Shown one piece after another: positions 1,200 through 18,281 of a stretch of DNA of 46,498 bases. Where the stretch lies: assembly GCA_030642005.1 (NCBI GenBank), contig DAOWOP010000001.1, forward strand, positions 1 through 46,498. The letters are read 5' to 3'. Position numbers and translations under genes: made by a program. The DNA is from Planctomycetales bacterium. GTDB lineage: Bacteria; Planctomycetota; Phycisphaerae; SM23-33. A model generated the notes under the pieces. That model saw only the letters and a program-made list of their open reading frames with translations, was not told the origin of the DNA and did no database searches. Numbering within the stretch: position 1 is the stretch's first letter; each line of letters begins with the position of its first letter.

Positions 1200-3118
1200 C
1201 CGATGATCTTCGCCCATATCCCGAATACAAGGACTCTGATGTGCCGTGGCTCGGTGAGACCCCTCGCCATTGGGGGCGAACGCATGGTGGAGCGGTCCTC
1301 CAGCAGAAGCGGGTCCGTAATCGTGGCATGATCGAGGACACCGTCCTCTCACTTAGCTATGGGCGGATCGTCATCAAGCCCCCTGAGAAACTCCACGGCC
1401 TTGTGCCGGAGTCTTTTGAGACGTACCAGATCGTCGATCCAGGCGACATCATCATTCGGCCAACGGATCTTCAAAACGACTGGAACACCATTCGTGTCGG
1501 CATCGTCAAGGGTCGAGGCATCATCACCTCGGCGTATCTGTGCTTCCGCACCCGCGAGCCGCTCACCGCCGAGTACGCGCACCTGCTCCTACTCGGTTAT
1601 GACCTCAAGAAGATCTTCTACGGCATGGGGTCAGGTCTCCGCCAGAACCTCGACTGGTCAGACTTCAAGCGCCTGCCGATTTTGCTGCCTCCACCTGAGG
1701 AGCAGAGGGCCATCGTCACCTACGTGAATCGGTTGGATCTACAGGTGCGCCAATTCATCCATAACCGGCGGCGGCTGATCGAAGTGTTGAACGAGCGGAA
1801 GCAAGCCATCACCCACCGCGCTGTCACCGGGGGCCTCGTTCCCGATGTCCATCTCAAACCCTCCGGTGTCGAGTGGCTCGGCGACGTACCGGAACATTGG
1901 GAGGTAACACCTGGTCGAAATTGCTTTTTTGAGAAGAAACAAACGAATGTTGGACTAATGGAATCGACTGTTTTGTCGTTGAGCTATGGCAATATTGTAA
2001 TCAGGCCAGAAGAGAAGCTGCATGGGCTTGTTCCAGCGTCATTCGAAACCTACCAGATTGTAGAGTCGGGCGACATTATTTGTCGTCCCACTGACCTGCA
2101 GAATGACAAGAAAAGCCTTCGCTTCGGTTTCTCCAAACATCGTGGCATTATCACGTCCGCATATCTATGTTTCAGAACAAGTTCCAGAATAGATAGTTAT
2201 TTCGCATATCTGCTTCTTCATACATACGACCTGAAGAAGATAATCTACCGTCTTGGCTCTGGCCTTCGTCAGAATCTTGCGTGGGGTGATTTCAAGAGTT
2301 TGCCTTGCCTACTCCCACCGCTCTCCGAGCAAACCGCAATCGTCGAGTATCTCGAAAAAACGACCGCTGATATTGACACCGCCATCAACCGCGCCCACCG
2401 CGAAATCGGCCTGATCCGCGAATACCGCACGCGGCTAATTGCCGACGTGGTAACAGGCAAGGTGGACGTGCGGCAAGTCTCTGCGATGACAGCAACATCA
2501 ACTGCGACTGAGGCCAAGCCAGCCCAACCCAAGCGCACCGCGAACGTTTACTTCCGCCGGTCAGTGTTTGCCGCCGAAATTGTACAGCGTCTCCACGAAG
2601 AACCGACCTTCGGTCATGTAAAATTCGAGAAACTGATTTTCCTGTGTGAGAAGCAGTGTGGCGTGGACACCGGATCGACGTACCATCGGCAGGCCGCGGG
2701 ACCATATGACAATCGCGCGCTTCGATCCATCGACAGCCAGATGGAGAAGCAGAAATGGTACGCCGCTCAGCAGGTCGAAGGGCGCTACCAGTATGTTCCC
2801 TTGGCCAAAGCGGGCGGCCACAAGACGTACTTCGACCGGTACTTCGCAAATGTTGAATGGGAGTTCTCGAACATCATTGAGACCTTCCGCACACTGAACA
2901 CACAACGGTGCGAGATTGTCGCCACGTTGTATGCCGTATGGGAAGACCTGCTGGCGCAGAGCGACAACGTTACGGGCGACCAAATCGTCGAACAAGTACT
3001 CCACCACTGGCACCCATCTAAGCAAGAGGTCGATGAGAATCGGTGGCGGCAGGCGATTGGCTGGATGAGGAAGAAGGGCTTGACGCCCAAGACTGGGGGC
3101 TCCGATGCCGACGACTGA
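1196..3118 (+). CDS. hsdS: Type I R-M specificity subunit HsdS with two near-identical target-recognition domains and an extra ~200-aa C-terminal domain
   Basis: There are two TRD-like halves (LSLSYGRIVIKPPEKLHGLVPESFETYQIV... and LSLSYGNIVIRPEEKLHGLVPASFETYQIV...). Each is followed by the conserved HsdS helical spacer (LPPPEEQRAIVTYV..., LPPLSEQTAIVEYL...REYRTRLIADVVTGKVDV). At 640 aa it is much longer than a typical HsdS. It overlaps hsdM (ATGA) and hsdR. Confidence 0.85.
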   Translation: MTDDLRPYPEYKDSDVPWLGETPRHWGRTHGGAVLQQKRVRNRGMIEDTVLSLSYGRIVIKPPEKLHGLVPESFETYQIVDPGDIIIRPTDLQNDWNTIRVGIVKGRGIITSAYLCFRTREPLTAEYAHLLLLGYDLKKIFYGMGSGLRQNLDWSDFKRLPILLPPPEEQRAIVTYVNRLDLQVRQFIHNRRRLIEVLNERKQAITHRAVTGGLVPDVHLKPSGVEWLGDVPEHWEVTPGRNCFFEKKQTNVGLMESTVLSLSYGNIVIRPEEKLHGLVPASFETYQIVESGDIICRPTDLQNDKKSLRFGFSKHRGIITSAYLCFRTSSRIDSYFAYLLLHTYDLKKIIYRLGSGLRQNLAWGDFKSLPCLLPPLSEQTAIVEYLEKTTADIDTAINRAHREIGLIREYRTRLIADVVTGKVDVRQVSAMTATSTATEAKPAQPKRTANVYFRRSVFAAEIVQRLHEEPTFGHVKFEKLIFLCEKQCGVDTGSTYHRQAAGPYDNRALRSIDSQMEKQKWYAAQQVEGRYQYVPLAKAGGHKTYFDRYFANVEWEFSNIIETFRTLNTQRCEIVATLYAVWEDLLAQSDNVTGDQIVEQVLHHWHPSKQEVDENRWRQAIGWMRKKGLTPKTGGSDADD

Positions 3119-6050
3119 CACATCCGAGAAAGGCCTGGAGACTTTGATCGTCGAGTCACTCGTGAACGAGGCCGGCTACGAACAAGGTCTGCCCGACGAC
3201 TACGACCGCGACCACGCAGTTGACCTGGCGAAGATGCTGGCATTCCTGGCGGCCACACAGCCGAAGGCAGTCGAGGCGCTGGGCCTGGCCGAGGACGGGC
3301 CGAAGCGGACACAGTTCCTTCATCGCCTTCAGGGCGAAATCGCCAAGCGCGGCGTGATTGATATTTTACGGAATGGCGTTAAGCATGGGCCGGTGAGCGT
3401 GGAGATGTTCTACGCCGCGCCCACGCCGGGGAATACAAAGGCAGAGCAGTTATTCGCAGCCAACATTTTCAGCGTTACTCGCCAGCTTCGTTACAGCAAG
3501 GATGAGACGCAGTTGTCGCTGGATTTGTGTGTGTTCATCAACGGCTTGCCTATCGCCACATTCGAACTCAAGAACTCTCTGACCAAGCAGACGGTTGCTG
3601 ATGCGGTGCAACAATACAAGCGGGACCGCAACCCCAAGGAACTGCTCTTTGCATTCGGGCGGTGCATGGTGCACTTCGCCGTGGACGACCAAGAAGTGCG
3701 GATGTGTACGCACCTTCAGGGCAAGCACTCGTGGTTCCTGCCGTTCGACATCGGTTGGAATGATGGAGCCGGTAACCCGCCGAACCCGACCGGCCTGAAG
3801 ACGGACTACCTTTGGAAGCAGGTCCTGACCAAGGCCAGGCTGACGGACATTATCGAGAACTACGCCCAAGCCGTGGAGGAGAAGGACGACAAGGGCAGGA
3901 AGAAACGCAAGCAGATATTCCCGCGTTACCACCAGCTTGACGTGGTGCGGAAACTACTGGCCGACGCAGAGGCCGGCGGGGCCGGCAAGCGATACTTGAT
4001 CGAGCACTCAGCCGGCAGCGGCAAGAGTAACTCCATCGCATGGCTGGCCCATCAATTGATTGGCCTAGAGAACCGTGGGAAGGCGATCTTCGATTCCATC
4101 ATCGTCGTTACGGATCGGCGGGTGCTGGACAAGCAGATTCGGGACACGATTAAGCAGTTTGCACAAGTCTCGGCCGTTGTAGGGGCCGTCACCGAGGGAG
4201 CCAAGCAGCTTCGGAATTTCATTCAACAAGGCAAGAAGATTATCATCTCGACGGTCCAGAAGTTCCCATTCATCCTGGACGAGATCGGTGACGAGCATCG
4301 CGGACGGAAGTTCGCCATCATTATCGACGAGGCCCATTCCAGCCAAGGCGGCCGGACCTCAGCGAAGATGAACATAGCACTATCGGAGACCGGCGGCGAG
4401 GAAGAGGAAGAAACCACCGAAGACAAGATTAACCGCATCATGGAGTCGCGGAAGATGCTCACCAACGCGAGTTACTTCGCTTTTACCGCGACACCGAAGA
4501 ACAAGACGCTGGAGATATTCGGCGAGCCGTACCGGGAAGGCGATAAGACCCGGCATCGGCCATTCCACTGCTACACGATGAAGCAGGCCATCCAGGAAGG
4601 CTTCATATTAGACGTGCTGAAGAACTACACGCCGGTCGAAAGCTATTACCGCCTGATGAAGACGGTGCCCGACGACCCGGAGTTCGATACGAAAAAGGCT
4701 ACGAAGAAGCTCCGCCGATACGTCGAATCGCATGAGCATGCGATCCGGCAGAAGGCGGAGATCATGGTTGATCACTTCCATAACCATGTGCTGGCCCGCA
4801 GGAAAATTACCGGGCAGGCGCGGGCTATGGTGGTCACTAGCGGAATTCGGCGGGCGATCCAGTATTATCACGCGTTCGTGGATTACCTTCGGGAACGAAA
4901 GATCCCGTACAAGGCTATCGTGGCGTTTTCCGGCGAGCACGAGTATGGCGGGCAGAAAGTAACCGAGGCATCGCTGAACGGTTTTCCGAGCAGCCAGATC
5001 GTGAAGAAGTTTCAGCAGGAGCCGTATCGCTTCCTCATCGTGGCGGACAAGTTCCAGACCGGCTACGACGAGCCGCTGCTACACACGATGTACGTGGACA
5101 AAATCCTCTCCGGCATCAAGGCTGTGCAGACGCTGTCGCGTCTCAACCGTGCCGATCCTCGCAAGCACGATACGTTTGTGTTGGACTTCATGAACGACGC
5201 CGACACCATCGAGGCGGCCTTCGCGGACTACTACCGCACGACTATCCTCAGCGAGGAGACAGACCCGAATAAATTGCACGACCTAAAGGCTGCGCTGGAC
5301 AGACGCCAGGTTTATGCCTGGCCACAGGTGGAAAATCTGGCCGAGTTGTATCTCGACGGAGCAGACCGGGACAATCTGGACCCGATTCTTGATGCGTGCG
5401 TGGCCGTCTATAATGCCGATCTGGACGAGGACGGACAGGTTGATTTCAAAGGCAAGGCCAAGGCGTTCTGTCGGACATACGGCTTTCTCGCGTCGATCTT
5501 GCCGTACACGAACGCAGATTGGGAGAAGCTGTCAATCTTCCTGAACTTTCTGATTCCCAAGCTGCCAGCACCAATCGAGGAAGATTTGGCTAAGGGAATC
5601 CTGGAGGCCATCGACATGGATAGCTATCGCGTCGAGGTTCAGGCGGCGATGGAGATCGCTCTGCCGGATGATGATGGCCAAGTCGGACCAGTGCCGACAA
5701 GCGGTGGAGGCCGTAAGCCGGAACCCGAACTGGACGCACTCAGCAACATCATCAAGGCCTTTAACGACCAGTTCGGCAACATCGAGTGGAAGGATAAGGA
5801 TAGAATTCGCAAAGTCATCAGCGAGGAGATTCCCGCGAAGGTGGCAGCCGACAAGGCCTACCAGAACGCGATGAAGAACTCGGATAAAGCCGCCGCCCGA
5901 CTTGAGCATGACAAAGCGCTCCAGAAAGTCGTCATTGAATTGCTTTCCGACCATACGGAGCTTTTTAAGCAGTTCAGCGATAATCCCAGTTTCAAGAAAT
6001 GGCTGGCGGACACGATCTTCGGTGTCACCTATGAGGGTGACGCTGCGTAA
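3105..6050 (+). CDS. hsdR: Type I restriction enzyme R subunit HsdR (nuclease plus SF2 helicase/translocase)
   Basis: N-terminal PD-(D/E)xK-like motif (DLCVFINGLPIATFELKNS), helicase motif I (HSAGSGKSNS) and DEAH box (IIIDEAHSSQ). It is 981 aa and sits directly after hsdM and hsdS. Confidence 0.92.
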   Translation: MPTTDTSEKGLETLIVESLVNEAGYEQGLPDDYDRDHAVDLAKMLAFLAATQPKAVEALGLAEDGPKRTQFLHRLQGEIAKRGVIDILRNGVKHGPVSVEMFYAAPTPGNTKAEQLFAANIFSVTRQLRYSKDETQLSLDLCVFINGLPIATFELKNSLTKQTVADAVQQYKRDRNPKELLFAFGRCMVHFAVDDQEVRMCTHLQGKHSWFLPFDIGWNDGAGNPPNPTGLKTDYLWKQVLTKARLTDIIENYAQAVEEKDDKGRKKRKQIFPRYHQLDVVRKLLADAEAGGAGKRYLIEHSAGSGKSNSIAWLAHQLIGLENRGKAIFDSIIVVTDRRVLDKQIRDTIKQFAQVSAVVGAVTEGAKQLRNFIQQGKKIIISTVQKFPFILDEIGDEHRGRKFAIIIDEAHSSQGGRTSAKMNIALSETGGEEEEETTEDKINRIMESRKMLTNASYFAFTATPKNKTLEIFGEPYREGDKTRHRPFHCYTMKQAIQEGFILDVLKNYTPVESYYRLMKTVPDDPEFDTKKATKKLRRYVESHEHAIRQKAEIMVDHFHNHVLARRKITGQARAMVVTSGIRRAIQYYHAFVDYLRERKIPYKAIVAFSGEHEYGGQKVTEASLNGFPSSQIVKKFQQEPYRFLIVADKFQTGYDEPLLHTMYVDKILSGIKAVQTLSRLNRADPRKHDTFVLDFMNDADTIEAAFADYYRTTILSEETDPNKLHDLKAALDRRQVYAWPQVENLAELYLDGADRDNLDPILDACVAVYNADLDEDGQVDFKGKAKAFCRTYGFLASILPYTNADWEKLSIFLNFLIPKLPAPIEEDLAKGILEAIDMDSYRVEVQAAMEIALPDDDGQVGPVPTSGGGRKPEPELDALSNIIKAFNDQFGNIEWKDKDRIRKVISEEIPAKVAADKAYQNAMKNSDKAAARLEHDKALQKVVIELLSDHTELFKQFSDNPSFKKWLADTIFGVTYEGDAA

Positions 6051-6117: not shown

Positions 6118-7476
6118 GTGTGGCATGGAGAATCGGGCGTGATTGTAGCAACGCCACAACATGATGAGCAGCTTCGAGGTAGGCTTGAAGCGCTAACAGA
6201 ACACGACCGGGACTACTGGTCGTTTAGGGGCAATTCACGCCGAGAGTATGGCCATGGACTTTTTCAGTACCCAGCCATGATGGTACCGCAAGTAGCCCGC
6301 GCCGTTCTCAAAGAAGCCTGCGCTGTTCACCCCGAAATCGAGCGAGCAGGCGATCCATTTTCGGGATCGGGAACAATCCTGACCGAAAGCATGATGCGCG
6401 GTCTTGCATTTTTTGGGACAGATATTAATCCCTTGGCGGCACGGCTGTGTCGGGTTAAGAGCGGGCCGTTCTTCGTTGAGGCATTGGGGCAGAAGGCTAG
6501 TGAAGTCGTTGCTCATATCGATGGTGATAAACGGTGGGCTGTTGAGGCCAATTTCATGAACCGGGACAAGTGGTTCCGAAGGGACGCACAAGTTGCACTG
6601 TCGAAGGTCCGTCGAGCGATTCGTCTCGAAAAATCGGCATGGGCTCGTAGATTCTTCTGGGTCGCTTTGGCCGAAACCGTTCGAGCCACAAGCAACTCTC
6701 GCACATCAACCTTCAAGCTGCACATTCGGACGCAAGAGGAAGTGGAAGGACGCGACCTCGACCCGATTGGTGTCTTCAAAAAAGTGGTTGTCCGCAATGT
6801 TCAGCACTTGAAGGACCAGGCCAGCCAACTGTCGGAAGCAGGCCAACTTGTGCGCGGTCATTACCAGCAAGACATAACCGTATCGCTTGACGATATTCGG
6901 CAAAGCACGGATCAGCCCCTGTGCGACATCATTGTAACTTCGCCACCGTACGGAGATAATGCAACCACTGTTCCCTATGGCCAGTACTCATACCTGCCAC
7001 TTCAGTGGATCGATCTTGAAGACATCGGAACAAACGTGGACGCTGGCTGTCTAGCATCGACTCACGAGATCGATACGCGAAGCCTCGGCGGTAGTAAGCG
7101 AGTGAAGAAGGCAGAGCCTGATCAGATCAAGGAGCGATCTCCAGCATTTGCGAGATACATCGGGAGCCTCAAGGATCAACCACGAGATCGCGCACAGCGG
7201 GTAACCGCCTTCTTCCGCGACTTGGACGGGTGCCTTGATCCGATTCTCAAGAGTCTGCGTTCTGGCGGTCTCATGGTTTGGACGCTGGGGAACCGGAAAG
7301 TTGGGGGGAAACGGGTTCCTTTGGATAAGATTCTTGCGGAATTGCTTTCGGCCCATGGTGCAAGACTGCTATGCAAGCTGACGAGGAAAATATCCTCAAA
7401 ACGCATGGCACTCAAGAACAATATCGCAGACACGATGTCGAGCGAAGCAATCCTGGTGATGCGGAAGGCAGTGTAA
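6118..7476 (+). CDS. DNA methyltransferase (N6-adenine or N4-cytosine class), orphan-like, first gene of a coupled triad
   Basis: SAM-binding motif I DPFSGSGTI, catalytic motif IV TSPPYGD about 195 aa downstream, and a YPAMMVP element near the N-terminus. The ORF-track start is GTG at 6118. GTG at 6139 has a better RBS (GGAGAA at 6127-6132). The stop is 1 nt before the next start. Confidence 0.75.
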   Translation: MWHGESGVIVATPQHDEQLRGRLEALTEHDRDYWSFRGNSRREYGHGLFQYPAMMVPQVARAVLKEACAVHPEIERAGDPFSGSGTILTESMMRGLAFFGTDINPLAARLCRVKSGPFFVEALGQKASEVVAHIDGDKRWAVEANFMNRDKWFRRDAQVALSKVRRAIRLEKSAWARRFFWVALAETVRATSNSRTSTFKLHIRTQEEVEGRDLDPIGVFKKVVVRNVQHLKDQASQLSEAGQLVRGHYQQDITVSLDDIRQSTDQPLCDIIVTSPPYGDNATTVPYGQYSYLPLQWIDLEDIGTNVDAGCLASTHEIDTRSLGGSKRVKKAEPDQIKERSPAFARYIGSLKDQPRDRAQRVTAFFRDLDGCLDPILKSLRSGGLMVWTLGNRKVGGKRVPLDKILAELLSAHGARLLCKLTRKISSKRMALKNNIADTMSSEAILVMRKAV

Positions 7477-7477
7477 T

Positions 7478-9964
7478 ATGGCGAAGGATAAGAAATCACA
7501 TTTTGAGGTGCATCCCTCTGTTGTGTATCAGCTCGGCGAGAGCCTAATCAGTGATGCCGTTCAGGCGTTAATCGAGCTTGTAAAGAACTGCTATGATGCC
7601 GATGCCACCTACGCCAAGATCACAATCGATACGCAGGGGGCAGTGGAGGTCGCCGGAGCCCTCTACCCTTCAGAAGGGGGCCGAATTATCGTCGAAGACG
7701 ATGGTTACGGGATGGACCTGGAGGATGTCGAGTCGGGCTGGCTGACGATCTCGAACAGAAAGAAGCGTGACCTAAAACAGGCCAAGAAGACCACTCCTGG
7801 TGGGCGCACACCTCTTGGCGACAAAGGACTGGGACGACTTGGCGTACAGCGTCTCGGCGACAGCCTGGAAATATTCACGAAGTCCAAGAAGGAGTCGGGA
7901 TACCATTTTGGCTTCTCCTGGCTTGACTTCGAGACTGCGCCAAAGCTTGAAAACGTTGATATCCATCTTGCCAAGATCAAGTATCCTCGGTCGTATGGAA
8001 CGAAGGTGGTTGTTTCGGGCCTTCGGGAACCCAAGTTCTGGCAAGGTCAACCCGCAATCAAACGCCTTGAGCAAGAGCTCTCGCGGATGATCTCTCCGTA
8101 CAAGCAAATCCGTGATTTCATGGTGGTCGTTGAAGTGGACGGAAAGCCGCTTGAGTTACTCGAGATCAGCGACAAGGTTCGTAGGATCGCTCCGATTCGG
8201 TACAGCCTCGTATTTGATGGAACGAATTTAGTCGTTCATGGTCGAACTCGACTGGACTTCTTCAGGCCATCGTCACCAAGGGAGTCCGAACAGTTTGCAT
8301 TGATCGCTGAATCGGATGGTGGCCAGGCATTCTATAAGTTTCTCGAAGGGCATAAGCTTGCAAAGATCATTGGTCTGGGCCAGTCACGTGCAAAGCAATG
8401 GTATTGCGAGTTTCACTGGCAGAAGGCTTTGGGCGATCTCGACAAGGTAGAGCGTGAGAGTTCCGATGACGGGAACGTGGCAAACCCAGGACCGTTCACA
8501 GGAGAAGTGGATTCTTTCAATCTTGGCACCTCTTCGTTTCAGCAGCAATCCGTCTTTGATCGCATCAGCGAATATCGTCGTCACATCAAGGAATTAAGCG
8601 GCATTCGTGTGTATCGAGATGGATTCGCAATCAGAGTCGATCACGACTGGCTCAAGTTGGGTGCGCAGTGGACATCGGCAACATCCTACTATGGCCTAAA
8701 GCCGGACAATACACTCGGATACATTGCCCTTTCTGCTCGGGACAACATAGAGTTGGAGGAGACAACAGACCGCGAAGGCTTCAAGGACTCACCTTACTAC
8801 CGAAACTTCTATGCTCTGCTGGAGGAGTTCAAGAAGTTTACGACAATTGCTCACGACTTTTTCGGTCGCTCCTGGGCGGAGTTTCGCAAAAAGCGAAATG
8901 AGGAATTGGCACGGGTTGATGCGCGGAAAACGGTAGAGAATATCTCCCAAACGATAAAGAAAGGACTTGCTGAGGCACCAACGCACCAGAAGAGCCTTGA
9001 TGCGCTGACGGCAAGGCTCAGCGCCAGCACATCGGCGTCAAAGGCAGTTGTCTCTGGGCTGCAATCGGCAAAGGAGATAACGCCGGAACTCCGGAAGAAG
9101 GTCACAGAGGCCCTGTCTGCTTTGGAACCGCTCCTTGAAGAAGCCAAGGGTGTGATAGGACGGTTGTCTGCGTACCTCGAAGAGGTGGGAGCCCTGCGGG
9201 GCATGGGGCAAGTGCTGGAAGACCGCGTTGATGGCTTGCGACGACAGATGGACGACATGTACGAGACGGTCGCACTGGGGCTGACGGCCGAAGCGTTATC
9301 TCATGAGGTATTCAATGTGGCCGACCAACTTGCTAAGCGAACTAAATCGGCGCAGACCACATTGAGGAAGAAAGGCATTACAGACCGCCCCATCCTTGCC
9401 TTTATCGAGTACGTCCACTCGGCCGTCATGGCTCTCCGTAAACAGATGTCCTATTTGTCGCCGTCGTTGCGATATGTGCGTGAGCAACGGCACGACATCA
9501 ACATCCGCGAGTTCTTGGCTGATATTGCAGAGTTTTACGCCGAGCGATTGGCCAAGAACAACATATCGATACGAGTCGAATGCGCAGATGATGCGCTCTT
9601 CGTCATTCGTATGAATAAGGGCAAACTGACGCAGGTTATAGACAATTTCGTCCTGAACAGCGAGTACTGGCTTAAAGAGGACATCACGCAAAAGCGACAA
9701 TCGTCCGGCATAATCTTTCTTGATATTGCCCGCCCATTTCTTCGAATCTACGACAATGGCAGCGGTATCGATCCCAACGTAGAAGACGCGATCTTCGAGC
9801 CGTTTATTTCAGCGAAGGCAAAGGGGCAAGGACGCGGTCTTGGGCTATTTATCGTGAAGCAGTTGCTGGATTCCGAGGGCTGCAGCGTAGGACTGCTTCC
9901 AGATCGCAACAAGCGCCGGCGAATGTTCAAGTTCCAGATCGACCTCCGGGGGGCACTTGCATGA
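7478..9964 (+). CDS. Dual GHKL-fold ATPase: N-terminal MORC/Hsp90-like ATPase module fused to a C-terminal histidine-kinase-like (DHp plus HATPase_c) module
   Basis: N-terminal N-box ELVKNCYDADA, G1 box VEDDGYGM and G2 box GDKGLGRLG. C-terminal H-box-like ALSHEVFNV, then NFVLNSEYW ... YDNGSGIDPNVEDAIFEPF ... GQGRGLGLFIVKQL. No transmembrane segments are evident. Confidence 0.7.
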   Translation: MAKDKKSHFEVHPSVVYQLGESLISDAVQALIELVKNCYDADATYAKITIDTQGAVEVAGALYPSEGGRIIVEDDGYGMDLEDVESGWLTISNRKKRDLKQAKKTTPGGRTPLGDKGLGRLGVQRLGDSLEIFTKSKKESGYHFGFSWLDFETAPKLENVDIHLAKIKYPRSYGTKVVVSGLREPKFWQGQPAIKRLEQELSRMISPYKQIRDFMVVVEVDGKPLELLEISDKVRRIAPIRYSLVFDGTNLVVHGRTRLDFFRPSSPRESEQFALIAESDGGQAFYKFLEGHKLAKIIGLGQSRAKQWYCEFHWQKALGDLDKVERESSDDGNVANPGPFTGEVDSFNLGTSSFQQQSVFDRISEYRRHIKELSGIRVYRDGFAIRVDHDWLKLGAQWTSATSYYGLKPDNTLGYIALSARDNIELEETTDREGFKDSPYYRNFYALLEEFKKFTTIAHDFFGRSWAEFRKKRNEELARVDARKTVENISQTIKKGLAEAPTHQKSLDALTARLSASTSASKAVVSGLQSAKEITPELRKKVTEALSALEPLLEEAKGVIGRLSAYLEEVGALRGMGQVLEDRVDGLRRQMDDMYETVALGLTAEALSHEVFNVADQLAKRTKSAQTTLRKKGITDRPILAFIEYVHSAVMALRKQMSYLSPSLRYVREQRHDINIREFLADIAEFYAERLAKNNISIRVECADDALFVIRMNKGKLTQVIDNFVLNSEYWLKEDITQKRQSSGIIFLDIARPFLRIYDNGSGIDPNVEDAIFEPFISAKAKGQGRGLGLFIVKQLLDSEGCSVGLLPDRNKRRRMFKFQIDLRGALA

Positions 9965-11712
9965 GTGATCAAAACGCCATTGCACACGCGCGTACCGCAG
10001 TTGAGCGCATTCTAACGGCCCTCCATGTTGCGCGCGTTGTCTGTGTTGATGACACCTATGGCGGTGGTACATCGCTGGAAGACGTCATCGCTGCTGCCAC
10101 TGATCTGGATGCAGACCACTTAGTCAATGCAGTGCCCGAACTAGGCGAGAACGTCCCGGATGATCCGGACATTCGACGCGAAAAACTGCGCCAGATATGG
10201 GGACAGATGGATGAGGATACGCGTTCCAAACGAGCCGATGCAGTGCTCATAGCGACCAGACGCCAAGACGACGATGAAACGGATGACCTCGCCGATGCTT
10301 CGATCTTGGGCGAACTGATCCCCGAGGACAATCTGGTAACCATCTCCCCGTCGCAATGGGAGGAACAGAAAGAGAAACTACTGACGCCTGATGGCGATCA
10401 GCGCACCCTCTTTCTGTTCGACCGTGACTTCTCCGAAGACGGTGGCGACAGCGACGGGGGTATCAAGATCATTGCCTCTCTGCTTGCAAGGAACGACACT
10501 GAAAATCTTATCTGCGGTCTTTTGACTCACACGGTGACGCCGGAGAACCAGTCGGAACAGTGGGACGAATTGAGCAAGGCTTACAGTATTCCGAGGGATC
10601 GATTCGTAGTGATTCCCAAGTTACATCTGAGCAGAGATCCGGTTCTCTTCGCTCAGACGCTGAAGTTCGTAGCATTGTGCCCCGACTTCACGGAGCTAAA
10701 GCGTAAGACAAAAGAGATTATAGCAGATGCAGCCGCCACTGCAGCCAATCGCGTCGATGAGATGAGCATCTTTGACCTTGATCACATAGTCTTTCAGGTT
10801 TCCGCCCAAGAAGGACTCTGGGAGCCCGACATGCTGTTTCGACTCCACACGTTGTTCCATCGCCTTGAGTCCCGACGTCTGGCACATGAGGGTGGGGAAC
10901 TTGAAACAATTGCGGCCAAATTAAGGGCCGTCAGCGAGATTCCGACCAATTGCGCTGCGTTCACTCCGCCCTCGAATGCATGGGCAATCCAACGGGACGA
11001 GCTCTTCGAATCGGACGTTTACATCAACCAGAATCACTTGCCATTGGAAGCTGGAGACATCTTCGAGCGGGTGGGAGCGTCCAGTAGTAAACGGTACATT
11101 CTGCTGGCCCAGCCATGCGATCTGATGGTGCGAAGCAATGGAAAACGACATCCCGAACTCGACCGGGTTCCCATGGCCGAAGTTGTGTGTAATGAGCAGA
11201 CATCTCACTATTCAGAGGAACTGCCGTATTTCGGCTCGTCTCCCGCAGAGAGATGGCACGTCAAACTGAAACTTGTCCATCAAGTACGGGTGTGCATCCT
11301 TGATCTGTGCGTCCTGAACGACGATGGGGTTGCGAGGCTGGTTGTTGGTGGCAATGCCCCAGCGAATATGCGCCCTGCTTGGAACAAACGCCATGCCATT
11401 TTGTCTCGTCTCATGGGCCGCATAATACGCAAGGCGGATCTGTGCGCTCCAGTTGCGAATGAATCAACTGCTGTAAGCCAAGTAAAGACGGCTATTGCGA
11501 GTGGCATGACGAGCGTGCTATTCGACGAAGCGTTATTCAAGGGCACCCTTGCAAAGGTTGGCGGGGCTCGCACGGTAACCTATGACTGCCGGCGAATCGC
11601 TCGAGCATCTCGGGCGCGGGCCTTCGGTTTGTTGATGGCCTATACAGGCTGCTTGAGCCGTCCAGCCTATGATCGTGTCTTTACTCCGACACAGGTCACG
11701 GGAGACCAATGA
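9961..11712 (+). CDS. Hypothetical protein with an N-terminal receiver (REC)-like region and a ~350-aa C-terminal domain of unknown function
   Basis: ATGA overlap with the upstream kinase-like gene. REC-like strand pattern: VVCVDDTYGG, then RTLFLFDRDF (candidate acceptor Asp), GLLTHTV and IPKL. The C-terminal part has a conserved-looking GDIFE...ILLAQPCDLMVR element that I cannot assign to a family. Confidence 0.5.
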   Translation: MSDQNAIAHARTAVERILTALHVARVVCVDDTYGGGTSLEDVIAAATDLDADHLVNAVPELGENVPDDPDIRREKLRQIWGQMDEDTRSKRADAVLIATRRQDDDETDDLADASILGELIPEDNLVTISPSQWEEQKEKLLTPDGDQRTLFLFDRDFSEDGGDSDGGIKIIASLLARNDTENLICGLLTHTVTPENQSEQWDELSKAYSIPRDRFVVIPKLHLSRDPVLFAQTLKFVALCPDFTELKRKTKEIIADAAATAANRVDEMSIFDLDHIVFQVSAQEGLWEPDMLFRLHTLFHRLESRRLAHEGGELETIAAKLRAVSEIPTNCAAFTPPSNAWAIQRDELFESDVYINQNHLPLEAGDIFERVGASSSKRYILLAQPCDLMVRSNGKRHPELDRVPMAEVVCNEQTSHYSEELPYFGSSPAERWHVKLKLVHQVRVCILDLCVLNDDGVARLVVGGNAPANMRPAWNKRHAILSRLMGRIIRKADLCAPVANESTAVSQVKTAIASGMTSVLFDEALFKGTLAKVGGARTVTYDCRRIARASRARAFGLLMAYTGCLSRPAYDRVFTPTQVTGDQ

Positions 11713-11830: not shown

Positions 11831-12823
11831 TCACCCTCTTCGCTGCGAAGGCGGCCGGATGCGCGGCCCAATGTGAGCACCATGTAGTCCATCGGACGTT
11901 GGCGGGAAGACACTCAAGTGGAGAAGATGGTCCTCGACCTGCAGGATCTGACCAAGCACGTCCTCGGCATCGAAACGCAGATCGTCACCAAGCCCCACCG
12001 CGTTGAAGGCCTGGCATTGCTGTTCGGCAACGTGCTCCAACAATACGCTGGCTGCCTTGGCGGTGAACGTCTTGTTGGCCTTGTCCTTGGCTGCCTCGGC
12101 GTCGACGGCGTAGCTCGCCACCAGTCGCGCCCAGACTGCCTCGAGCGTTGAGGGCGAGTCAAAGGCGTCCGCCGCCACGAAACGCCCACACACGGCCGCC
12201 ACGACGCCACACGTGCCAGAGGGGTACGGTAATGCCTCGTGATAGCGCCCGAGCACTTCGGCCAGTGTGTCCATTGCATCGGACATCGCACGGGTTGGTG
12301 AAGGGGCGGCGCAGGCCTCGATGTGTTCGGCCACGTTGTCCCACACGGCTCCTTGATCGCTTTCGGCCCGGCCACAGGCGCGAAGGCTGAACTGAACGTC
12401 GCGGCTCTTGCGCTGGCGCAAGCTGCTCGGCGCGTAGTTGCCGGTTTTGAAGGTCGGACTGGTGTGGCTCCACCGGCCTTCCTCGACGCAGGATACCGGG
12501 ATGCGGGTCTTGGACTTTGGCGGCAATAGCACACTCGTGTTGAGGATTCGATTCTGCTTCGCGCCCTGGAGTTCCTCGCCGTCCAGCAGCAATATCGGCC
12601 GGTCAGCGTTATTGACCGCCAGGAGTTCCGGCACTGTACCGGACTCATCAACCTCGGTTACCGTCAGCATACCAGCGTCGATGGCTTCGGACGCCAGCAG
12701 GTAGTCCTGGAATCGTTGCTGATGCCCCTCCCCCCGCAGGGGCACCAGCGTCAGGTTCTGGTGGCCTATCGCGGCCCCGGGTACCAGGGTTGGGAGAACG
12801 TCTTTCATTCGGATCGTGGTCAT
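11831..12823 (-). CDS. Conserved hypothetical protein, divergent from the WYL regulator gene
   Basis: The ORF track starts at TTG 12844. ATG at 12823 is preceded by AAGGAAAGGG and is the more likely start. The N-terminal half (NLTLVPL...LTVTEVDESGTVPELLAVNNADRPILLLDGEELQGAKQNRILNTSVLL) recalls a widespread bacterial DUF family (possibly ARPP-1/DUF6569-like). That is from memory only and unverified. Confidence 0.55.
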   Translation of the reverse strand: MTTIRMKDVLPTLVPGAAIGHQNLTLVPLRGEGHQQRFQDYLLASEAIDAGMLTVTEVDESGTVPELLAVNNADRPILLLDGEELQGAKQNRILNTSVLLPPKSKTRIPVSCVEEGRWSHTSPTFKTGNYAPSSLRQRKSRDVQFSLRACGRAESDQGAVWDNVAEHIEACAAPSPTRAMSDAMDTLAEVLGRYHEALPYPSGTCGVVAAVCGRFVAADAFDSPSTLEAVWARLVASYAVDAEAAKDKANKTFTAKAASVLLEHVAEQQCQAFNAVGLGDDLRFDAEDVLGQILQVEDHLLHLSVFPPTSDGLHGAHIGPRIRPPSQRRG

Positions 12824-12872
12824 GGCTATCCCTTTCCTTATCAAGTTGCCGATACAAGGGTAACCGGGGCCT

Positions 12873-14047: not shown

Positions 14048-15934
14048 ATGAACGAAAAAAAGCGTTGTCACCGGCTCAAGTCGCTGTCGGTGGTCGGTGG
14101 GTTTCTGGATGGGTTGAATATCGAGTTTGCCGACGGGCTGAATTGTCTTATCGGCCATCGTGGTACGGGCAAGACGACCGTGCTGGAGTTTATCCGTTAT
14201 GCCCTCGACGAGTTTCCGCAAGACGATGGAGGGCTGGCCCGCAAGCGGGTCGAAGCACTGGTCAAAAGCAACCTCAGCGACGGCCGCATCCGGCTGGCAC
14301 TGGAGACCAAGGATGGGTTGGAGTACATCGTCGACCGGACCGCCAGTGGCGAGCCGATGGTCCTGACCACTGATGAGCAACCGACGGACGTTCGCATCAA
14401 CACGGCGGGCATTTTCAGCGCCGATATCTTCAGTCAGAACGAGGTCGAGAACATCGCCGACAGTCCACAGTCGCAGCTGGAGCTGATTGACAAGTTCGCA
14501 GCCGGTCAGATCGCAGAGGTCAACCGCAAGGTGACGGCGGTGCGGGCCAAGATGGAGGCGAACACCAACGCCATTGTTACCCATGACCAGCAGTTGAAAG
14601 GTCTGGTCGACGAGGTCTCCGCGCTGCAGTTCATCGAGTCGAAGATCAAGTCCCTTACCGATGATAAGAGCGACCAGACGGATGATGAGGTTAACGTCGC
14701 GCAGCAGCATCGTGCGCTGCGGGGACGTGAGAGCCAGGCGGTCAAGGAGGCAGAGGAACTGATCCAGCAATACAGCCAGTGGCTCCACGATTCGCGCGGT
14801 CAGTTTATCCAGCGAATCGAAACGGCCTTCGACCCGTCAATGTTGGACGGGCCGAATGGCAAGGTGATGAGCCGCATTCAGGAGAATCTCAGGCGGCTTG
14901 GGAGCAAACTGGATCGCCTGTTCGACCAGGCCGCCGGCGTGGTTGATTCCGGTGGGAATGAACTGGCGGAACTGGTCGGCAAGCTCCAGCACGCCCACCA
15001 GCAGCAGGAGCTGGCGTTCCGCGACCTGATCGCCAAGGACAACCATGCACGCGGGGTGGCCACGGAGCGGGCGGAATTGGAAAAGAAACGTAATGATTTG
15101 CTAGCCAAGGATCGGCGTAAGGCTGAGCTTCAAAAGCAGATCGACCAGCTCTATCGGGAACGGTCTGATCTGGCCGGGCAGCTCCGTGAATTGTGGTCCG
15201 AGCGATTCGAGCTGCGGCAGCAGGTCGCCAACTGGATTAACGAGGGCGCGACGTCGCCTATTCGCGTCCGGATCGACCAGTGCGGCAACCGTTCGGTCTA
15301 CCAGCAGGCGTTGGCCGGCTGGATGAAGGGATATGTGCGCCAGTACAACCCGGCGGCCAGGAAGATAGCGGACTACGTGCCACCGAGCGACCTGCTGCGG
15401 ATGGTCACCGAGGGACGCACCGATGATCTTCAGGCCCAAGCGGAACTCGGAGACACGCAGATGGCCAAGGTGATGGAGGCCCTGAACCGTCTTGATGTCC
15501 AACTGCAGCTCGACTCGGTTGAACTGGCCGATCTGCCACGGCTTGAACTGCTGGACGGTGAGGAGTGGAAGAACTCTCTGCATCTTTCGACCGGCCAGAA
15601 GTGCACGACGATTCTGCCGATCCTGCTGCTGGAGAGCGACAACCCATTGCTCGTCGATCAGCCTGAGGACAATCTCGACAACCGCTATATCTACGACACG
15701 GTGGTCAATGCCATCCATCGGGTGAAGCAGAACCGCCAGATTATCCTGATCACGCACAACCCGAACATTCCCGTTCTCGGCGAGGCGTCGGCGGTGTACG
15801 TGCTGACCAGCGACGGCGAGCGAGCCCGTATGGCGAACCAGGGCTCCGTGGACGACTGCAAAACCGAGATCATCAATCTCCTGGAAGGCGGCAAGGAAGC
15901 CTTTGTCCGCAGGAAGGACAGGTACAAATACTGA
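14048..15934 (+). CDS. SMC/Rad50-like ABC ATPase with a long central coiled-coil insert
   Basis: Walker A IGHRGTGKTT at the N-terminus. About 330 aa of heptad-like, charged sequence in the middle. Signature-like LSTGQK and Walker B/D-loop LLVDQPEDNLD near the C-terminus. Confidence 0.75.
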   Translation: MNEKKRCHRLKSLSVVGGFLDGLNIEFADGLNCLIGHRGTGKTTVLEFIRYALDEFPQDDGGLARKRVEALVKSNLSDGRIRLALETKDGLEYIVDRTASGEPMVLTTDEQPTDVRINTAGIFSADIFSQNEVENIADSPQSQLELIDKFAAGQIAEVNRKVTAVRAKMEANTNAIVTHDQQLKGLVDEVSALQFIESKIKSLTDDKSDQTDDEVNVAQQHRALRGRESQAVKEAEELIQQYSQWLHDSRGQFIQRIETAFDPSMLDGPNGKVMSRIQENLRRLGSKLDRLFDQAAGVVDSGGNELAELVGKLQHAHQQQELAFRDLIAKDNHARGVATERAELEKKRNDLLAKDRRKAELQKQIDQLYRERSDLAGQLRELWSERFELRQQVANWINEGATSPIRVRIDQCGNRSVYQQALAGWMKGYVRQYNPAARKIADYVPPSDLLRMVTEGRTDDLQAQAELGDTQMAKVMEALNRLDVQLQLDSVELADLPRLELLDGEEWKNSLHLSTGQKCTTILPILLLESDNPLLVDQPEDNLDNRYIYDTVVNAIHRVKQNRQIILITHNPNIPVLGEASAVYVLTSDGERARMANQGSVDDCKTEIINLLEGGKEAFVRRKDRYKY

Positions 15935-18140: not shown

Positions 18141-18281
18141 CGTGAGCGTTCTTGCGGATCAGAATCTGTATCGGCGTATGGTGACATGAGTTGGAATCAT
18201 GCTGACACCTCAGTCCCGGCGCGTTAGCATGGGTGGCGCAAGTCGAGACTGTTTCGTGCATGGAAAGCGGGCAGAGTTGGC

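What the first reader, a model, noticed from the sequence alone, without database searches (positions are those of the whole stretch)
7478..9964. One polypeptide with two different GHKL ATPase modules
The N-terminal ~200 aa carry MORC/Hsp90/MutL-style boxes (ELVKNCYDADA; DDGYGM; GDKGLGRLG). The last ~230 aa carry a separate histidine-kinase catalytic core (H-box-like SHEVFN; NFVLNSEYW; DNGSGID; GRGLGLFIV). About 400 aa of partly coiled-coil sequence lie between them, and there are no membrane segments. Two ATP-binding Bergerat folds in one soluble protein imply coupled ATP-driven sensing and phosphotransfer.
Basis: seen in the sequence. Interest (0 to 1): 0.6.

Follow-up and report, generated by a model that had tools for sequence, protein, structure and literature searches.

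The report
Double-ATPase sensor kinase, methylase-linked defence cassette
The gene does encode one soluble protein with two different ATP-binding heads (a MORC/MutL-like ATPase and a histidine kinase), but this layout is already known: it is the sensor of a mobile three-gene DNA-methylase/kinase/receiver cassette, an untested variant of the 'Ambrosia' anti-phage system.

Summary
Window 7478-9964 encodes an 828-aa soluble protein. Residues 26-180 form a GHKL ATPase head (Pfam HATPase_c_3) with a MORC/SMCHD1/Hsp90-like transducer domain to about residue 440. A coiled coil follows (441-600), then a DHp helix with invariant His609 and a histidine-kinase catalytic domain (672-822, Pfam HATPase_c). 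Every ATP-binding box of both heads is invariant or nearly so in 75 relatives down to 35% identity.

The gene is the middle of a translationally coupled trio: an SPPY-motif DNA methyltransferase, this kinase, and a 583-aa partner. The partner has a full receiver signature (DD30/31, D154, T/S189, K220) and an output domain that matches no family. The gene order is kept in about 70 genomes from more than 10 phyla and DPANN archaea. The flanks always differ and there is no conserved fourth gene.

The architecture is not new. It was noted in 2008 (REBASE R.EcoUTORF4938P), described as HEF_HK/Response_reg_2 in 2021, and shown to block phages in 2025 (Ambrosia AbrB; N40A in the N-terminal head and D60A in the receiver abolish defence). 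This family fails those Pfam models and has no HNH or XRE gene. It fuses the receiver to an unknown output, so I class it as a new variant of a known kind. This scan has reported Ambrosia-like cassettes on other DNA many times.

The parts
6118..7476 (+). DNA methyltransferase (P0122, 452 aa). The true start is probably the in-frame GTG at 6139, which gives 445 aa as in the homologues. Motif I is DPFSGSGT at about aa 79-86. Motif IV is S275-P-P-Y278 (codons 6940-6951). The stop TAA lies 1 nt before the kinase ATG.
   Evidence: PADLOC MTase_II PDLC03360, E 3.9e-107, full length. Pfam N6_N4_Mtase and UPF0020 hits are weak. SPPY is invariant in 71/71 orthologues. Orthologues sit directly upstream of the kinase in nearly all loci. 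Junction sequence. Start region.
7478..9964 (+). The finding itself: 828-aa soluble double-GHKL sensor kinase (P0001).
7553..8017 (+). N-terminal GHKL (Bergerat) ATPase head, aa ~26-180. Key residues: E33 (general base), N37 (Mg), D74-G76-G78 (G1 box), G114-G122 (ATP lid).
   Evidence: HATPase_c_3, E 4.2e-16. NCBIfam BbrUII/HgiDII restriction-enzyme N-terminus, E 2.5e-22, residues 9-227. These residues are 75/75 invariant. 30% identity over 228 aa to Ambrosia AbrB, E 3e-23.
8045..8797 (+). Transducer-like alpha/beta domain, aa ~190-440. It contains the most conserved stretch of the protein (aa 376-435: GIRVYRDGF...TDREGF; R380 and R432 invariant).
   Evidence: Foldseek alignments of 316-339 columns to the SMCHD1 and MORC2 ATPase modules. 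Conservation profile. Invariant residues. AlphaFold pLDDT is below 50 for aa 380-435.
8798..9277 (+). Long helical (coiled-coil-like) linker, aa ~441-600. It is the least conserved part of the protein.
   Evidence: AlphaFold helices 439-483, 486-498, 500-530 and 536-631. Conservation 0.26-0.35.
9278..9481 (+). DHp helical hairpin, aa ~601-668, with the H-box LTAEALSH609EVFN. The His609 codon CAT is at 9302-9304.
   Evidence: H609 75/75, E610 73/75, E605 74/75. Aligned to the LvrB H-box by HMMER. NCBIfam kinase models cover 590-812. Foldseek DHp+CA hits.
9491..9943 (+). Histidine-kinase catalytic (CA) GHKL domain, aa ~672-822. Boxes: N (N723, N727), G1 (D759-G761-G763), F (F773, F776), G2 (G785-G789).
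   Evidence: HATPase_c, E 3.4e-16. PDB kinase CA hits down to E 1.8e-9. The box residues are 74-75/75 conserved.
9961..11712 (+). Partner protein (P0121, 583 aa): receiver-like domain plus helical region plus unknown output domain. Its start overlaps the kinase stop by 4 nt (ATGA).
10012..10638 (+). Receiver-like (beta-alpha)5 domain, aa ~18-226, with an ~80-aa helical insert after beta1. Landmarks: D30-D31, D154 (codon GAC 10420-10422), T189, K220.
   Evidence: AlphaFold strand/helix order. D154 and K220 are 75/75, T/S189 75/75, D30 74/75, D31 73/75. hhalign of the core against 19 receiver domains of the same genome: E 0.0033, 95 columns, all landmarks in register. No Pfam Response_reg or Response_reg_2 hit.
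10639..11004 (+). Helical region, aa 227-348, with the conserved EGLWEPDMLFRL motif (E284, G285, R294).
11005..11655 (+). Output domain of unknown family, aa ~349-565. Invariant residues: G365-D366, C386 (in QPCDL), R391, R545 and R567. Nearly invariant: R396 and D448.
   Evidence: Invariant residues in 75 and in 39 diverse members. No Pfam, NCBIfam, PADLOC, PHROG or PDB sequence hit. Homologous to the C-terminal part of the Bacillus cereus plasmid partner (hhalign Prob 82.6%, E 9.6e-6, 272 columns). Local Foldseek hits to MazF/PemK (prob 0.90-0.97, E ~0.3) are not backed by profile comparison.

Best explanation
P0001 is the sensor histidine kinase of a self-contained, horizontally mobile three-gene cassette. 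The cassette comprises an SPPY-type DNA methyltransferase, the double-GHKL kinase, and a receiver protein with its own output domain. It belongs to the methylase-linked two-component class described computationally as HEF_HK/Response_reg_2. One member of that class, Ambrosia of Pseudomonas aeruginosa, has been shown to block phages.

Proposed mechanism:
1. The N-terminal GHKL head and its transducer domain act as the input module. Like MORC, MutL, Hsp90 or the HgiDII-type restriction enzymes, the module binds and hydrolyses ATP and dimerises or clamps. It probably acts on DNA whose methylation state is set by the neighbouring methyltransferase.
2. The conformational change travels through the ~160-aa coiled coil to the DHp hairpin.
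3. The C-terminal CA domain phosphorylates His609.
4. The phosphoryl group passes to Asp154 of the translationally coupled partner.
5. The partner's unknown C-terminal domain is the output. It carries invariant Asp366, Cys386, Arg391, Arg545 and Arg567. In this variant it stands in for the separate HNH nuclease of Ambrosia.

Shown here: both folds, all catalytic boxes, the His and Asp landmarks, the gene coupling, the strict synteny and the mobility. Inferred: steps 1-5, the role in defence, and what the output does.
For: Both modules:
- Both GHKL modules pass curated Pfam thresholds and match solved structures of the two kinds.
- E33, N37, D74, G76, G78, H609, G761, G763, F773 and G785 are 75/75 invariant in relatives down to 35% identity.

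Cassette:
- The order methyltransferase-kinase-partner is found in every non-truncated locus of 80 from genome contigs except four. In L028, L040 and L083 the methylase is a different or differently placed N6_N4 methylase; L039 has none adjacent. The same trio appears on metagenome contigs.
- The flanking genes differ in practically every locus, and no fourth gene is conserved.
- The genes are coupled: a 1-nt gap and an ATGA overlap.

Partner:
- The receiver landmarks sit at the ends of beta1, beta3, beta4 and beta5.

Context and mobility:
- The cassette lies in a defence island between a Type I R-M operon and a WYL/ATPase/Tiamat-like cluster.
- No homologue was found in 300 other sampled genomes of the same phylum, while 66-87% identical copies occur in Syntrophaceae, Lentisphaerae, Chromatiales and Nitrospirae.

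Link to Ambrosia:
- AbrB has the same HATPase_c_3 + HATPase_c architecture. Its N-terminal 228 aa are 30% identical to P0001 (E 3e-23).
- AbrB N40A (= N37 here) and AbrC D60A abolish defence.
Against: - Nothing here was tested biochemically.
- P0001 does not hit Pfam HisKA or HEF_HK. The partner does not hit Response_reg or Response_reg_2, even at E = 10. Profile support for the receiver is weak (hhalign E 0.0033, Prob 9.7%).
- The partner shows no sequence similarity to AbrC.
- There is no XRE and no HNH gene, so the Ambrosia model (transcriptional induction of a nuclease) cannot be carried over directly.
- No nuclease or other effector fold could be assigned to any of the three proteins.
- The AlphaFold model of P0001 is only moderate (pLDDT 68, pTM 0.41, monomer).
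- That the input is DNA or its methylation state is pure inference from the neighbourhood and from the relatives of the GHKL head.
Confidence: 0.7

Rival explanations
1. P0001 and P0121 are a conventional regulatory two-component pair. The phosphorylated partner binds DNA and switches on transcription of the methylase or of neighbouring R-M genes. This is what was proposed for HEF_HK/Response_reg_2 and for AbrC in Ambrosia. On this reading the partner's C-terminal domain is a DNA-binding output, not an effector.
For: - This is the published hypothesis for the class.
- The C-terminal part of the partner has invariant arginines (R545, R567; R548 in 71/75) in a beta-hairpin plus helix.
- A Type I R-M operon lies directly upstream, only 68 bp away.
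Against: - No HTH or winged-helix profile hits in 39 diverse partners.
- The cassette moves as three genes with unrelated neighbours. It has no conserved target operon and no nuclease to regulate.
Confidence: 0.18
2. P0001 is itself the restriction subunit of an ATP-dependent Type II-like R-M system. Automated tools label it so (REBASE putative R.EcoUTORF4938P type; DefenseFinder and PADLOC 'Type II REase'). On this reading the kinase-like C-terminal module serves only as a second ATPase or dimerisation device, and there is no phosphorelay.
For: - The N-terminal head is closest to the GHKL head of the real restriction enzymes BbrUII/HgiDII (E 2.5e-22) and to PADLOC REase_II models.
- A methyltransferase is always adjacent.
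- Orlowski and Bujnicki list such proteins among GHKL-containing putative restriction enzymes.
Against: - The similarity stops at the GHKL head (79 bits against a family cut-off of 550; profile positions 3-205 of 659).
- No nuclease domain is detectable in P0001.
- The phospho-acceptor His and the partner's Asp/Thr/Lys are invariant over >10 phyla, which is hard to explain without phosphotransfer.
- In Ambrosia the receiver Asp is required for defence.
Confidence: 0.07
3. The cassette is a selfish addiction module rather than a phage-defence system. The methylase is the 'antidote' mark and the kinase-gated partner is the toxin. Loss of the cassette, and the resulting dilution of methylation, triggers growth arrest.
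For: - The cassette is mobile, patchily distributed and tightly coupled.
- The partner's output domain gives local fold hits to MazF/PemK toxins in two structure libraries.
- The 2021 paper discusses R-M systems as selfish elements.
Against: - Addiction and defence do not exclude each other, and R-M systems do both.
- The MazF resemblance is not significant (E ~0.3) and has no profile support (Prob <1%).
- Ambrosia protects without measurable host toxicity.
Confidence: 0.1

Closest known systems
Ambrosia anti-phage system of Pseudomonas aeruginosa (AbrR-AbrA-AbrB-AbrC-AbrD; bioRxiv 10.1101/2025.09.30.679545)
   Same: - A DNA methyltransferase gene is followed by a soluble kinase with HATPase_c_3 at the N-terminus and HATPase_c at the C-terminus (AbrB, 747 aa), and then by a receiver protein.
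- The AbrB head is 30% identical to P0001 over 228 aa (E 3e-23), with the same ELVKN.YDADA, DDG.GM and G.KGLGRLG boxes.
- The conserved 'G(V/I)R(I/V)YRD.F ... (D/N)REG' stretch of the transducer domain is also present in the AbrB sequence printed in the paper's Table S1, by my reading. BLASTP did not align that stretch.
- Both are defence-island or mobile elements.
   Different: - This cassette has three genes, not five. It has no XRE regulator (AbrR) and no HNH nuclease (AbrD).
- The methylase is an SPPY N6_N4/UPF0020-like enzyme, not the N6_Mtase/MmeI-like AbrA.
- The receiver protein has 583 aa, with an ~80-aa insert and a ~360-aa extension (a helical region and an unknown output domain). 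AbrC has 209 aa. The two show no detectable sequence similarity.
- Ambrosia was reported only in Gammaproteobacteria. This family spans >10 phyla and DPANN archaea.
HEF_HK (PF19191) / Response_reg_2 (PF19192) two-component-like pairs next to R-M genes (Bellieny-Rabelo et al. 2021, PMC8011034)
   Same: - The predominant architecture is HATPase_c_3 + DHp + HATPase_c.
- The kinase is soluble.
- The adjacent downstream 'RR-like' protein has no other known domain.
- A methyltransferase lies upstream.
- The pairs are associated with R-M genes.
- P0001 aligns over 88% of its length with the Acinetobacter baumannii kinase, which is a borderline HEF_HK member (E 5e-23).
   Different: - Neither Pfam model matches P0001, P0121 or the Hymenobacter and Bacillus relatives.
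- The linked methylases in the paper are mostly C5-cytosine enzymes (often with Vsr). Here the methylase is an SPPY enzyme.
- The partner is recognisably similar to the A. baumannii partner only around the QPCDL motif.
GHKL-containing Type II restriction enzymes (R.HgiDII/BbrUII family; REBASE putative R.EcoUTORF4938P; Orlowski & Bujnicki 2008, PMC2441816)
   Same: - The N-terminal GHKL head is the closest named relative (NCBIfam NF050001, E 2.5e-22).
- R.EcoUTORF4938P was described in 2008 as having an N-terminal GHKL head plus a C-terminal histidine-kinase domain with N, D, F and G motifs. That is the same two-GHKL layout.
   Different: HgiDII/BbrUII carry an unassigned nuclease domain after the head, not a transducer, coiled coil and kinase. 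P0001 scores 79 bits against a family cut-off of 550.
MORC / paraMORC ATPases of R-M systems (Iyer, Abhiman & Aravind 2008, PMC2292703); SMCHD1, MORC2, Hsp90/TRAP1 ATPase modules
   Same: - A GHKL head plus a second (S5/transducer-type) domain, as judged by fold (316-339 aligned columns to SMCHD1 and MORC2).
- Neighbourhood with methylases and R-M genes.
   Different: - The paraMORC families described in that paper end in nuclease, TIR or unknown domains, none in a histidine kinase.
- The MORC-specific motif was not tested.

Membership tests
GHKL (Bergerat-fold) ATPase, N-terminal module | Motif I with a catalytic Glu and a Mg-binding Asn; a DxGxG G1 box; a Gly-rich ATP lid; a profile hit above the curated threshold; the fold itself | tested here: met
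   E33, N37, D74, G76, G78 and G114-G122 are invariant. PF13589: 59.6 bits against a cut-off of 25. Foldseek hits to SMCHD1, TRAP1, Topo II and MORC2.
GHKL (Bergerat-fold), C-terminal histidine-kinase CA module | N, G1, F and G2 boxes; a profile hit above the curated threshold; the fold itself | tested here: met
   N723/N727, D759-G761-G763, F773/F776 and G785-G789 are 74-75/75 conserved. PF02518: 60.1 bits against a cut-off of 26.4. PDB CA domains down to E 1.8e-9.
Class I (HisKA-type) histidine kinase | A phospho-acceptor His followed by an acidic residue in helix 1 of a DHp helical hairpin directly before the CA domain | tested here: met
   H609-E610 are invariant or nearly so. The predicted helices 536-631 and 637-658 precede the CA domain. 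H609 aligns with the H-box His of LvrB. Foldseek covers DHp+CA of HK853 and ZraS. There is no PF00512 hit, however.
Class I (HisKA-type) histidine kinase | ATP-dependent autophosphorylation on His and transfer to the Asp of a receiver | not testable with these tools
   Needs labelled-ATP and Phos-tag assays.
HEF_HK / Response_reg_2 pair (PMC8011034) | A match to Pfam PF19191 in the kinase | tested here: not met
   No hit at E <= 10. No match in the own genome at E <= 1. The A. baumannii relative is borderline at 23.8-24.2 bits against a cut-off of 24.1.
HEF_HK / Response_reg_2 pair (PMC8011034) | A match to Pfam PF19192 in the adjacent protein | tested here: not met
   No hit. The A. baumannii partner gives only 13.6 bits.
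HEF_HK / Response_reg_2 pair (PMC8011034) | Architecture HATPase_c_3 + DHp + HATPase_c; a soluble kinase; an adjacent RR-like gene; a methylase nearby | tested here: met
Ambrosia defence system | An AbrB-type double-GHKL kinase | tested here: met
   30% identity over 228 aa, E 3e-23. AbrB has the same two Pfam domains. Only the first ~400 aa of AbrB were available.
Ambrosia defence system | An AbrD HNH nuclease and an AbrR XRE regulator in the cluster | tested here: not met
   No such ORFs flank the cassette in the window. No conserved gene lies upstream or downstream in 70 loci.
Ambrosia defence system | An AbrC-type small receiver protein | tested here: not met
   The partner has 583 aa, with extra domains. 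BLASTP against AbrC is not significant. Only the receiver landmarks are shared.
Ambrosia defence system | Protection against phages | not testable with these tools
   Needs plaque assays in a laboratory host.
Receiver (REC/CheY-like) domain, partner protein | A (beta-alpha)5 fold with an acidic pair after beta1, the phospho-acceptor Asp after beta3, Thr/Ser after beta4 and Lys after beta5 | tested here: met
   AlphaFold topology (pLDDT 81). D30/D31, D154, T/S189 and K220 are conserved in 73-75 of 75. hhalign places them in register, E 0.0033. Profile-level support is weak and there is no PF00072 hit.
MazF/PemK toxin fold (partner output domain) | Profile or significant fold similarity to PemK/MazF, and their catalytic Arg/Thr | tested here: inconclusive
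   Foldseek local hits: prob 0.90-0.97, TM(target) 0.41-0.49, ~90 columns, E ~0.3, in both PDB and BFVD. hhalign against 29 PemK sequences gives Prob <1%. Catalytic equivalents are not conserved.
BbrUII/HgiDII restriction enzyme family (NF050001) | A full-length match above the curated cut-off, including the C-terminal nuclease part | tested here: not met
   79.2 bits against a cut-off of 550. Only profile positions 3-205 of 659 are matched.

The most novel reading that the evidence does not exclude
The three genes form a signal-transducing restriction system.

- The self mark would be N4-methylcytosine, as suggested by the invariant SPPY motif.
- A MORC-like ATP-driven clamp would read the mark.
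- The read-out would be converted into a His-Asp phosphorelay.
- The relay would switch on an effector domain of a so far undescribed family. That domain has an invariant Asp/Cys/Arg site and possibly a MazF-like barrel.

This would be a mode of self/non-self discrimination and an effector fold not covered by Ambrosia's transcriptional model.
Probability: 0.25. Interest if true: 0.7.

Novelty: new variant of a known kind. Interest (0 to 1): 0.35.

Why it matters
Methylase-linked two-component cassettes are very widespread. This subfamily alone occurs in at least 229 of about 185,000 species genomes. At least 150 of the 743 protein clusters (50% identity) that match P0001 at E <= 1e-30 are near full-length.

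Only one distant member, Ambrosia, has been tested, and its mechanism is unsettled. The three-gene form is the minimal version. It has no separate nuclease and no extra regulator, so the kinase, the receiver and one unknown domain must together contain sensing, signalling and output.

That makes it a clean system for two questions:
- How does a MORC/MutL-type ATPase head feed a histidine kinase?
- What does the output do?

It also matters for annotation. Current pipelines call these proteins 'Type II restriction enzyme', 'ATP-binding protein', 'sensor histidine kinase' or even 'cytochrome P450'.

Tried and rejected
1. Assigning the partner's output domain. There were no hits in any of these:
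- Pfam, for the single sequence at E <= 10 and for 39 diverse members at E <= 1
- NCBIfam, PADLOC and PHROGs
- PDB sequences, searched with two profiles

 A region-restricted homologue search found only the same family.

2. MazF/PemK idea. Foldseek suggested it in PDB and again in BFVD. hhalign of the domain against 29 PemK sequences from the same phylum gave Prob <1%, no better than the controls. I keep it only as a fold-level hint.

3. Fourth gene. I looked for a conserved HNH, XRE or other gene next to the cassette in 70 loci and found none.

4. [quoted passage not shown] Tested and not met.

5. Promoter and terminator scan around the cassette. Not above the shuffled expectation.

6. Active-site guesses. 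I considered reading C386 in 'QPCDLMVR' as a CX5R phosphatase loop, a papain- or sortase-like nucleophile, or a pyrimidine-C6-attacking Pro-Cys. I rejected all as unsupported: the spacing is CX4R, the domain has no invariant His, and the folds do not fit.

7. Limits reached. Whole-model Foldseek of the partner is hampered by its three domains.


Full report
**The observation**

Window 7478-9964 (+) is an intact ORF of 828 aa.

Pfam finds two different GHKL models, both far above their curated thresholds:
- HATPase_c_3 at residues 29-144 (E 4.2e-16, 59.6 bits, cut-off 25)
- HATPase_c at residues 716-804 (E 3.4e-16, 60.1 bits, cut-off 26.4)

NCBIfam places the N-terminal 9-227 next to the GHKL head of the BbrUII/HgiDII restriction-enzyme family (E 2.5e-22, but 79 bits against a cut-off of 550). 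About fifty histidine-kinase models cover residues ~590-812. There is no hydrophobic segment.

**Anatomy**

An AlphaFold model built on 34 homologues (pLDDT 68, pTM 0.41, monomer) gives five parts:
- a GHKL head, ~26-180
- a second alpha/beta domain, ~190-440
- long helices, 439-631
- a return helix, 637-658
- a CA domain, 672-822

Foldseek against the PDB returns two kinds of hits with probability 1.0:
- DHp+CA structures (ZraS, HK853, DivL; ~240-250 columns, E 1e-9 to 1e-8)
- GHKL-plus-transducer ATPase modules (SMCHD1 316-325 columns, MORC2 339, TRAP1, Topo IIa)

So the ~400 aa between the two heads are not just coiled coil. About 250 aa form the transducer-type second domain of the first ATPase module, about 160 aa are coiled coil, and then comes the DHp hairpin.

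A family profile aligns 'ALGLTAEALSHEVFN' with the LvrB H-box 'AMGVMAGTMAHEINNPL', His on His.

I extracted 75 family members from 80 genomic loci, 35-87% identical to P0001. In these:
- E33, N37, D40, D74, G76, G78, K96, R110, H609, G761, G763, F773 and G785 are 75/75 invariant.
- E610, N723, N727, D759, F776, G787 and G789 are conserved in 73-74 of 75.

Both ATP sites and the phospho-acceptor His are therefore under strong purifying selection.

The most conserved stretch of the whole protein is residues 376-435 in the transducer domain (GIRVYRDGF...TDREGF; R380 and R432 invariant). AlphaFold models this stretch poorly. The coiled coil is the least conserved part.

**The neighbours**

The gene is the middle one of three.

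The upstream gene, 6118-7476, encodes a DNA methyltransferase (PADLOC MTase_II PDLC03360, E 3.9e-107, full length).
- Its motif IV, SPPY, is invariant in 71 of 71 orthologues. By the established motif rule SPP(Y/F) marks N4-cytosine enzymes and (D/N)PP(Y/F) marks N6-adenine enzymes. SPPY therefore suggests an N4-cytosine methylase; this is an inference.
- Its real start is probably the GTG at 6139.
- Its stop lies 1 nt before the kinase ATG.

The downstream gene, 9961-11712, overlaps the kinase stop by ATGA. It encodes a 583-aa protein with no hit in Pfam, NCBIfam, PADLOC or PHROGs. Its AlphaFold model is good (pLDDT 81, pTM 0.71) and shows three parts:
- a (beta-alpha)5 domain with an ~80-aa helical insert after beta1
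- a helical region, 227-348
- a beta-rich domain, 349-565

The five receiver landmarks sit exactly where they should:
- D30-D31 after beta1 (74 and 73 of 75)
- D154 after beta3 (75/75)
- T/S189 after beta4 (75/75)
- K220 after beta5 (75/75)

With the insert removed, hhalign aligns the core to 19 receiver domains of the same genome over 95 columns. All landmarks are in register (E 0.0033). The other two parts of the protein give E 0.4-0.8. This is weak statistically but coherent.

**Conservation and mobility**

The family is large.
- The word-based protein search gave 1694 hits. The best 120 are all full length, 66-87% identical and carry both Pfam domains.
- The exhaustive search of 50%-identity representatives gave 743 clusters at E <= 1e-30. 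Nearly all of the 150 listed are full length.

A scan of one genome per species found the family in 229 species. These include Syntrophaceae, Lentisphaerae, Pseudomonadota, Zixibacteria, Planctomycetota, Nitrospirae, Acidobacteriota, Actinomycetota, Bacteroidota, Chloroflexota, Gemmatimonadota, Armatimonadota and two DPANN archaea.

In the 80 loci kept, the order methylase-kinase-partner holds wherever the contig allows it to be seen, with four exceptions:
- Two loci (L028, L040) have a divergently oriented N6_N4 methylase.
- One locus (L083) has the methylase two genes away.
- One locus (L039) has no adjacent methylase.

The genes beyond the trio are unrelated in practically every locus (largest cluster 3-4 of 70). 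The unit is therefore exactly three genes.

The window's genome has one copy. None of 300 other sampled genomes of its phylum has a homologue at E <= 1e-40, while 75-80% identical copies sit in other phyla. This points to horizontal transfer.

In the window the cassette lies in a defence island. A Type I R-M operon (3-6050) lies upstream. An ARPP-1 gene, a WYL regulator, a TrlF-like ATPase, a HEAT-kinase/regulator pair and a sacsin/NOV (Tiamat-like) giant lie downstream.

**What is already known**

The two-GHKL layout is not new.
- Orlowski and Bujnicki (2008, PMC2441816) described the REBASE putative enzyme R.EcoUTORF4938P. It has an N-terminal GHKL domain and a C-terminal histidine-kinase domain with N, D, F and G motifs.
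- Iyer et al. (2008, PMC2292703) defined MORC and paraMORC GHKL+S5 ATPases as R-M components.
- Bellieny-Rabelo et al. (2021, PMC8011034) described exactly HATPase_c_3 + a new DHp (HEF_HK, PF19191) + HATPase_c. It sits next to an 'RR-like' protein (Response_reg_2, PF19192) and methylases, in 628 strains. They proposed a cytoplasmic two-component-like system tied to R-M.
- A 2025 preprint (10.1101/2025.09.30.679545) validated 'Ambrosia' in P. aeruginosa: AbrR (XRE), AbrA (N6 methylase), AbrB (kinase/HSP90-like ATPase), AbrC (receiver) and AbrD (HNH). Each is required for defence.

From that preprint's supplement, AbrB (747 aa) has HATPase_c_3 and HATPase_c. The mutated residue N40 is the Asn of 'ELVKN' in the N-terminal head, which is N37 here. 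AbrC D60A also abolishes defence. The available ~400 aa of AbrB are 30% identical to P0001 over 228 aa (E 3e-23).

**Where this family stands**

It is related to these systems but is not a member in the strict sense.
- Neither P0001 nor P0121 matches PF19191, PF19192, HisKA or Response_reg, even at E = 10.
- Plasmid-borne relatives show a gradient. The Hymenobacter (36% identity) and Bacillus (28%) pairs do not match either model. The Sinorhizobium kinase scores 14.8 bits for HEF_HK. The A. baumannii pair is borderline for HEF_HK (23.8-24.2 bits, cut-off 24.1) and weak for Response_reg_2 (13.6 bits).
- P0001 still aligns with the A. baumannii kinase over 88% of its length (E 5e-23).
- The partner's C-terminal part is homologous to that of the Bacillus partner (Prob 82.6%, E 9.6e-6, 272 columns). 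It is similar to the A. baumannii partner only around 'QPCDL'.

Compared with Ambrosia:
- There is no XRE and no HNH gene.
- The methylase is of another class.
- The receiver protein is 583 aa instead of 209 aa and shows no sequence similarity to AbrC.

I therefore class it as a new variant of a known kind.

**The output domain**

This is the real unknown. Across 39 members down to 17% identity, the invariant residues outside the receiver domain are G285 and R294 in the helical region, and G365, D366, C386, R391, R545 and R567 in the output domain. E284, E347, Q384, G394, D448 and G456 are nearly invariant.
- No sequence method assigns a family.
- Whole-model Foldseek gave no significant hit. 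In both the PDB and the viral library, the only low-rmsd, high-probability local matches are MazF/PemK toxins (prob 0.90-0.97, ~90 columns, E ~0.3).
- A profile comparison with 29 PemK sequences is negative (Prob <1%).

I therefore treat the MazF-like barrel as a hint only.

Because the cassette has no other candidate, this domain is most likely the effector. It could be a nuclease, an RNase or another toxic activity. A DNA-binding output cannot be excluded.

**Mechanism and odds**

My best reading (0.7) has five steps:
1. The first head and its transducer form an ATP-driven input clamp.
2. The clamp signals through the coiled coil to the DHp.
3. The second head phosphorylates His609.
4. The phosphoryl group passes to Asp154.
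5. This controls the output domain.

Rival readings:
- a purely transcriptional two-component pair (0.18)
- a selfish addiction module (0.10)
- a restriction subunit without a phosphorelay (0.07)

These are not fully exclusive of one another.

**Earlier notes of this scan**

I looked at these after I had found the three papers myself. The notes report Ambrosia-like cassettes in at least 33 other genomes. One is a three-gene form like this one (e1-1120880). Another reports a MazF/PemK-like tail on a receiver protein (e1-4941011). These notes agree with my reading but are not independent evidence.

**Verdict**

The finding is correct as an observation and broadly right as an interpretation. It is not a new architecture. 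Its remaining interest lies in the untested mechanism and in the unknown output domain.

Noticed in passing
window 1196-3118 (+): The Type I R-M specificity subunit (HsdS, 640 aa) carries a ~200-aa C-terminal extension (aa 428-632). The extension matches the C-terminal end of a PADLOC Type I methyltransferase model (PDLC03039, positions 493-700 of 708, E 3.2e-52) and the ends of some long specificity-subunit models.
   Followed up: no
window 6118-6141: The methyltransferase ORF starts at GTG 6118. All orthologues align only from residue 8 onward and are 445 aa long. The in-frame GTG at 6139 is therefore the more likely start.
   Followed up: partly
L005:7563-9359 (Hymenobacter monticola plasmid NZ_CP094538.1, WP_243520915.1): The receiver/output partner of the Hymenobacter cassette is annotated 'cytochrome P450' in the record. 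It has no Pfam hit at all and aligns with P0121 (26% identity), so this is probably a misannotation.
   Followed up: partly
window 11831-12844 (-): An ARPP-1 gene (PF20208, E 5e-91) converges on the end of the cassette. The family name means 'ARG and Rhodanese-Phosphatase-superfamily-associated protein'. It is not conserved next to the cassette in other genomes.
   Followed up: partly
L028:5204-6400 (-), L040:5246-6439 (-), L083:1742-2935 (+): In a few Acidobacteriota loci the usual co-oriented methylase is replaced by a shorter (~397 aa) N6_N4 methylase. It is either divergently oriented or two genes away. L039 has no adjacent methylase and sits next to phage-like genes (Gp157, DUF2201). The methylase slot of the cassette is therefore exchangeable.
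   Followed up: partly
window 14048-22628 (+): A second kinase-containing unit lies 2 kb downstream: a TrlF-like ABC/SMC ATPase, a HEAT-repeat histidine kinase and a receiver-wHTH regulator. It is followed by a 1448-aa sacsin/NOV GHKL protein. The island thus holds three different GHKL-type proteins.
   Followed up: no
window 6118-11712: The cassette has slightly lower G+C (53.4%) than the window (56.3%) and than the adjacent Type I R-M operon (56.4%).
   Followed up: no
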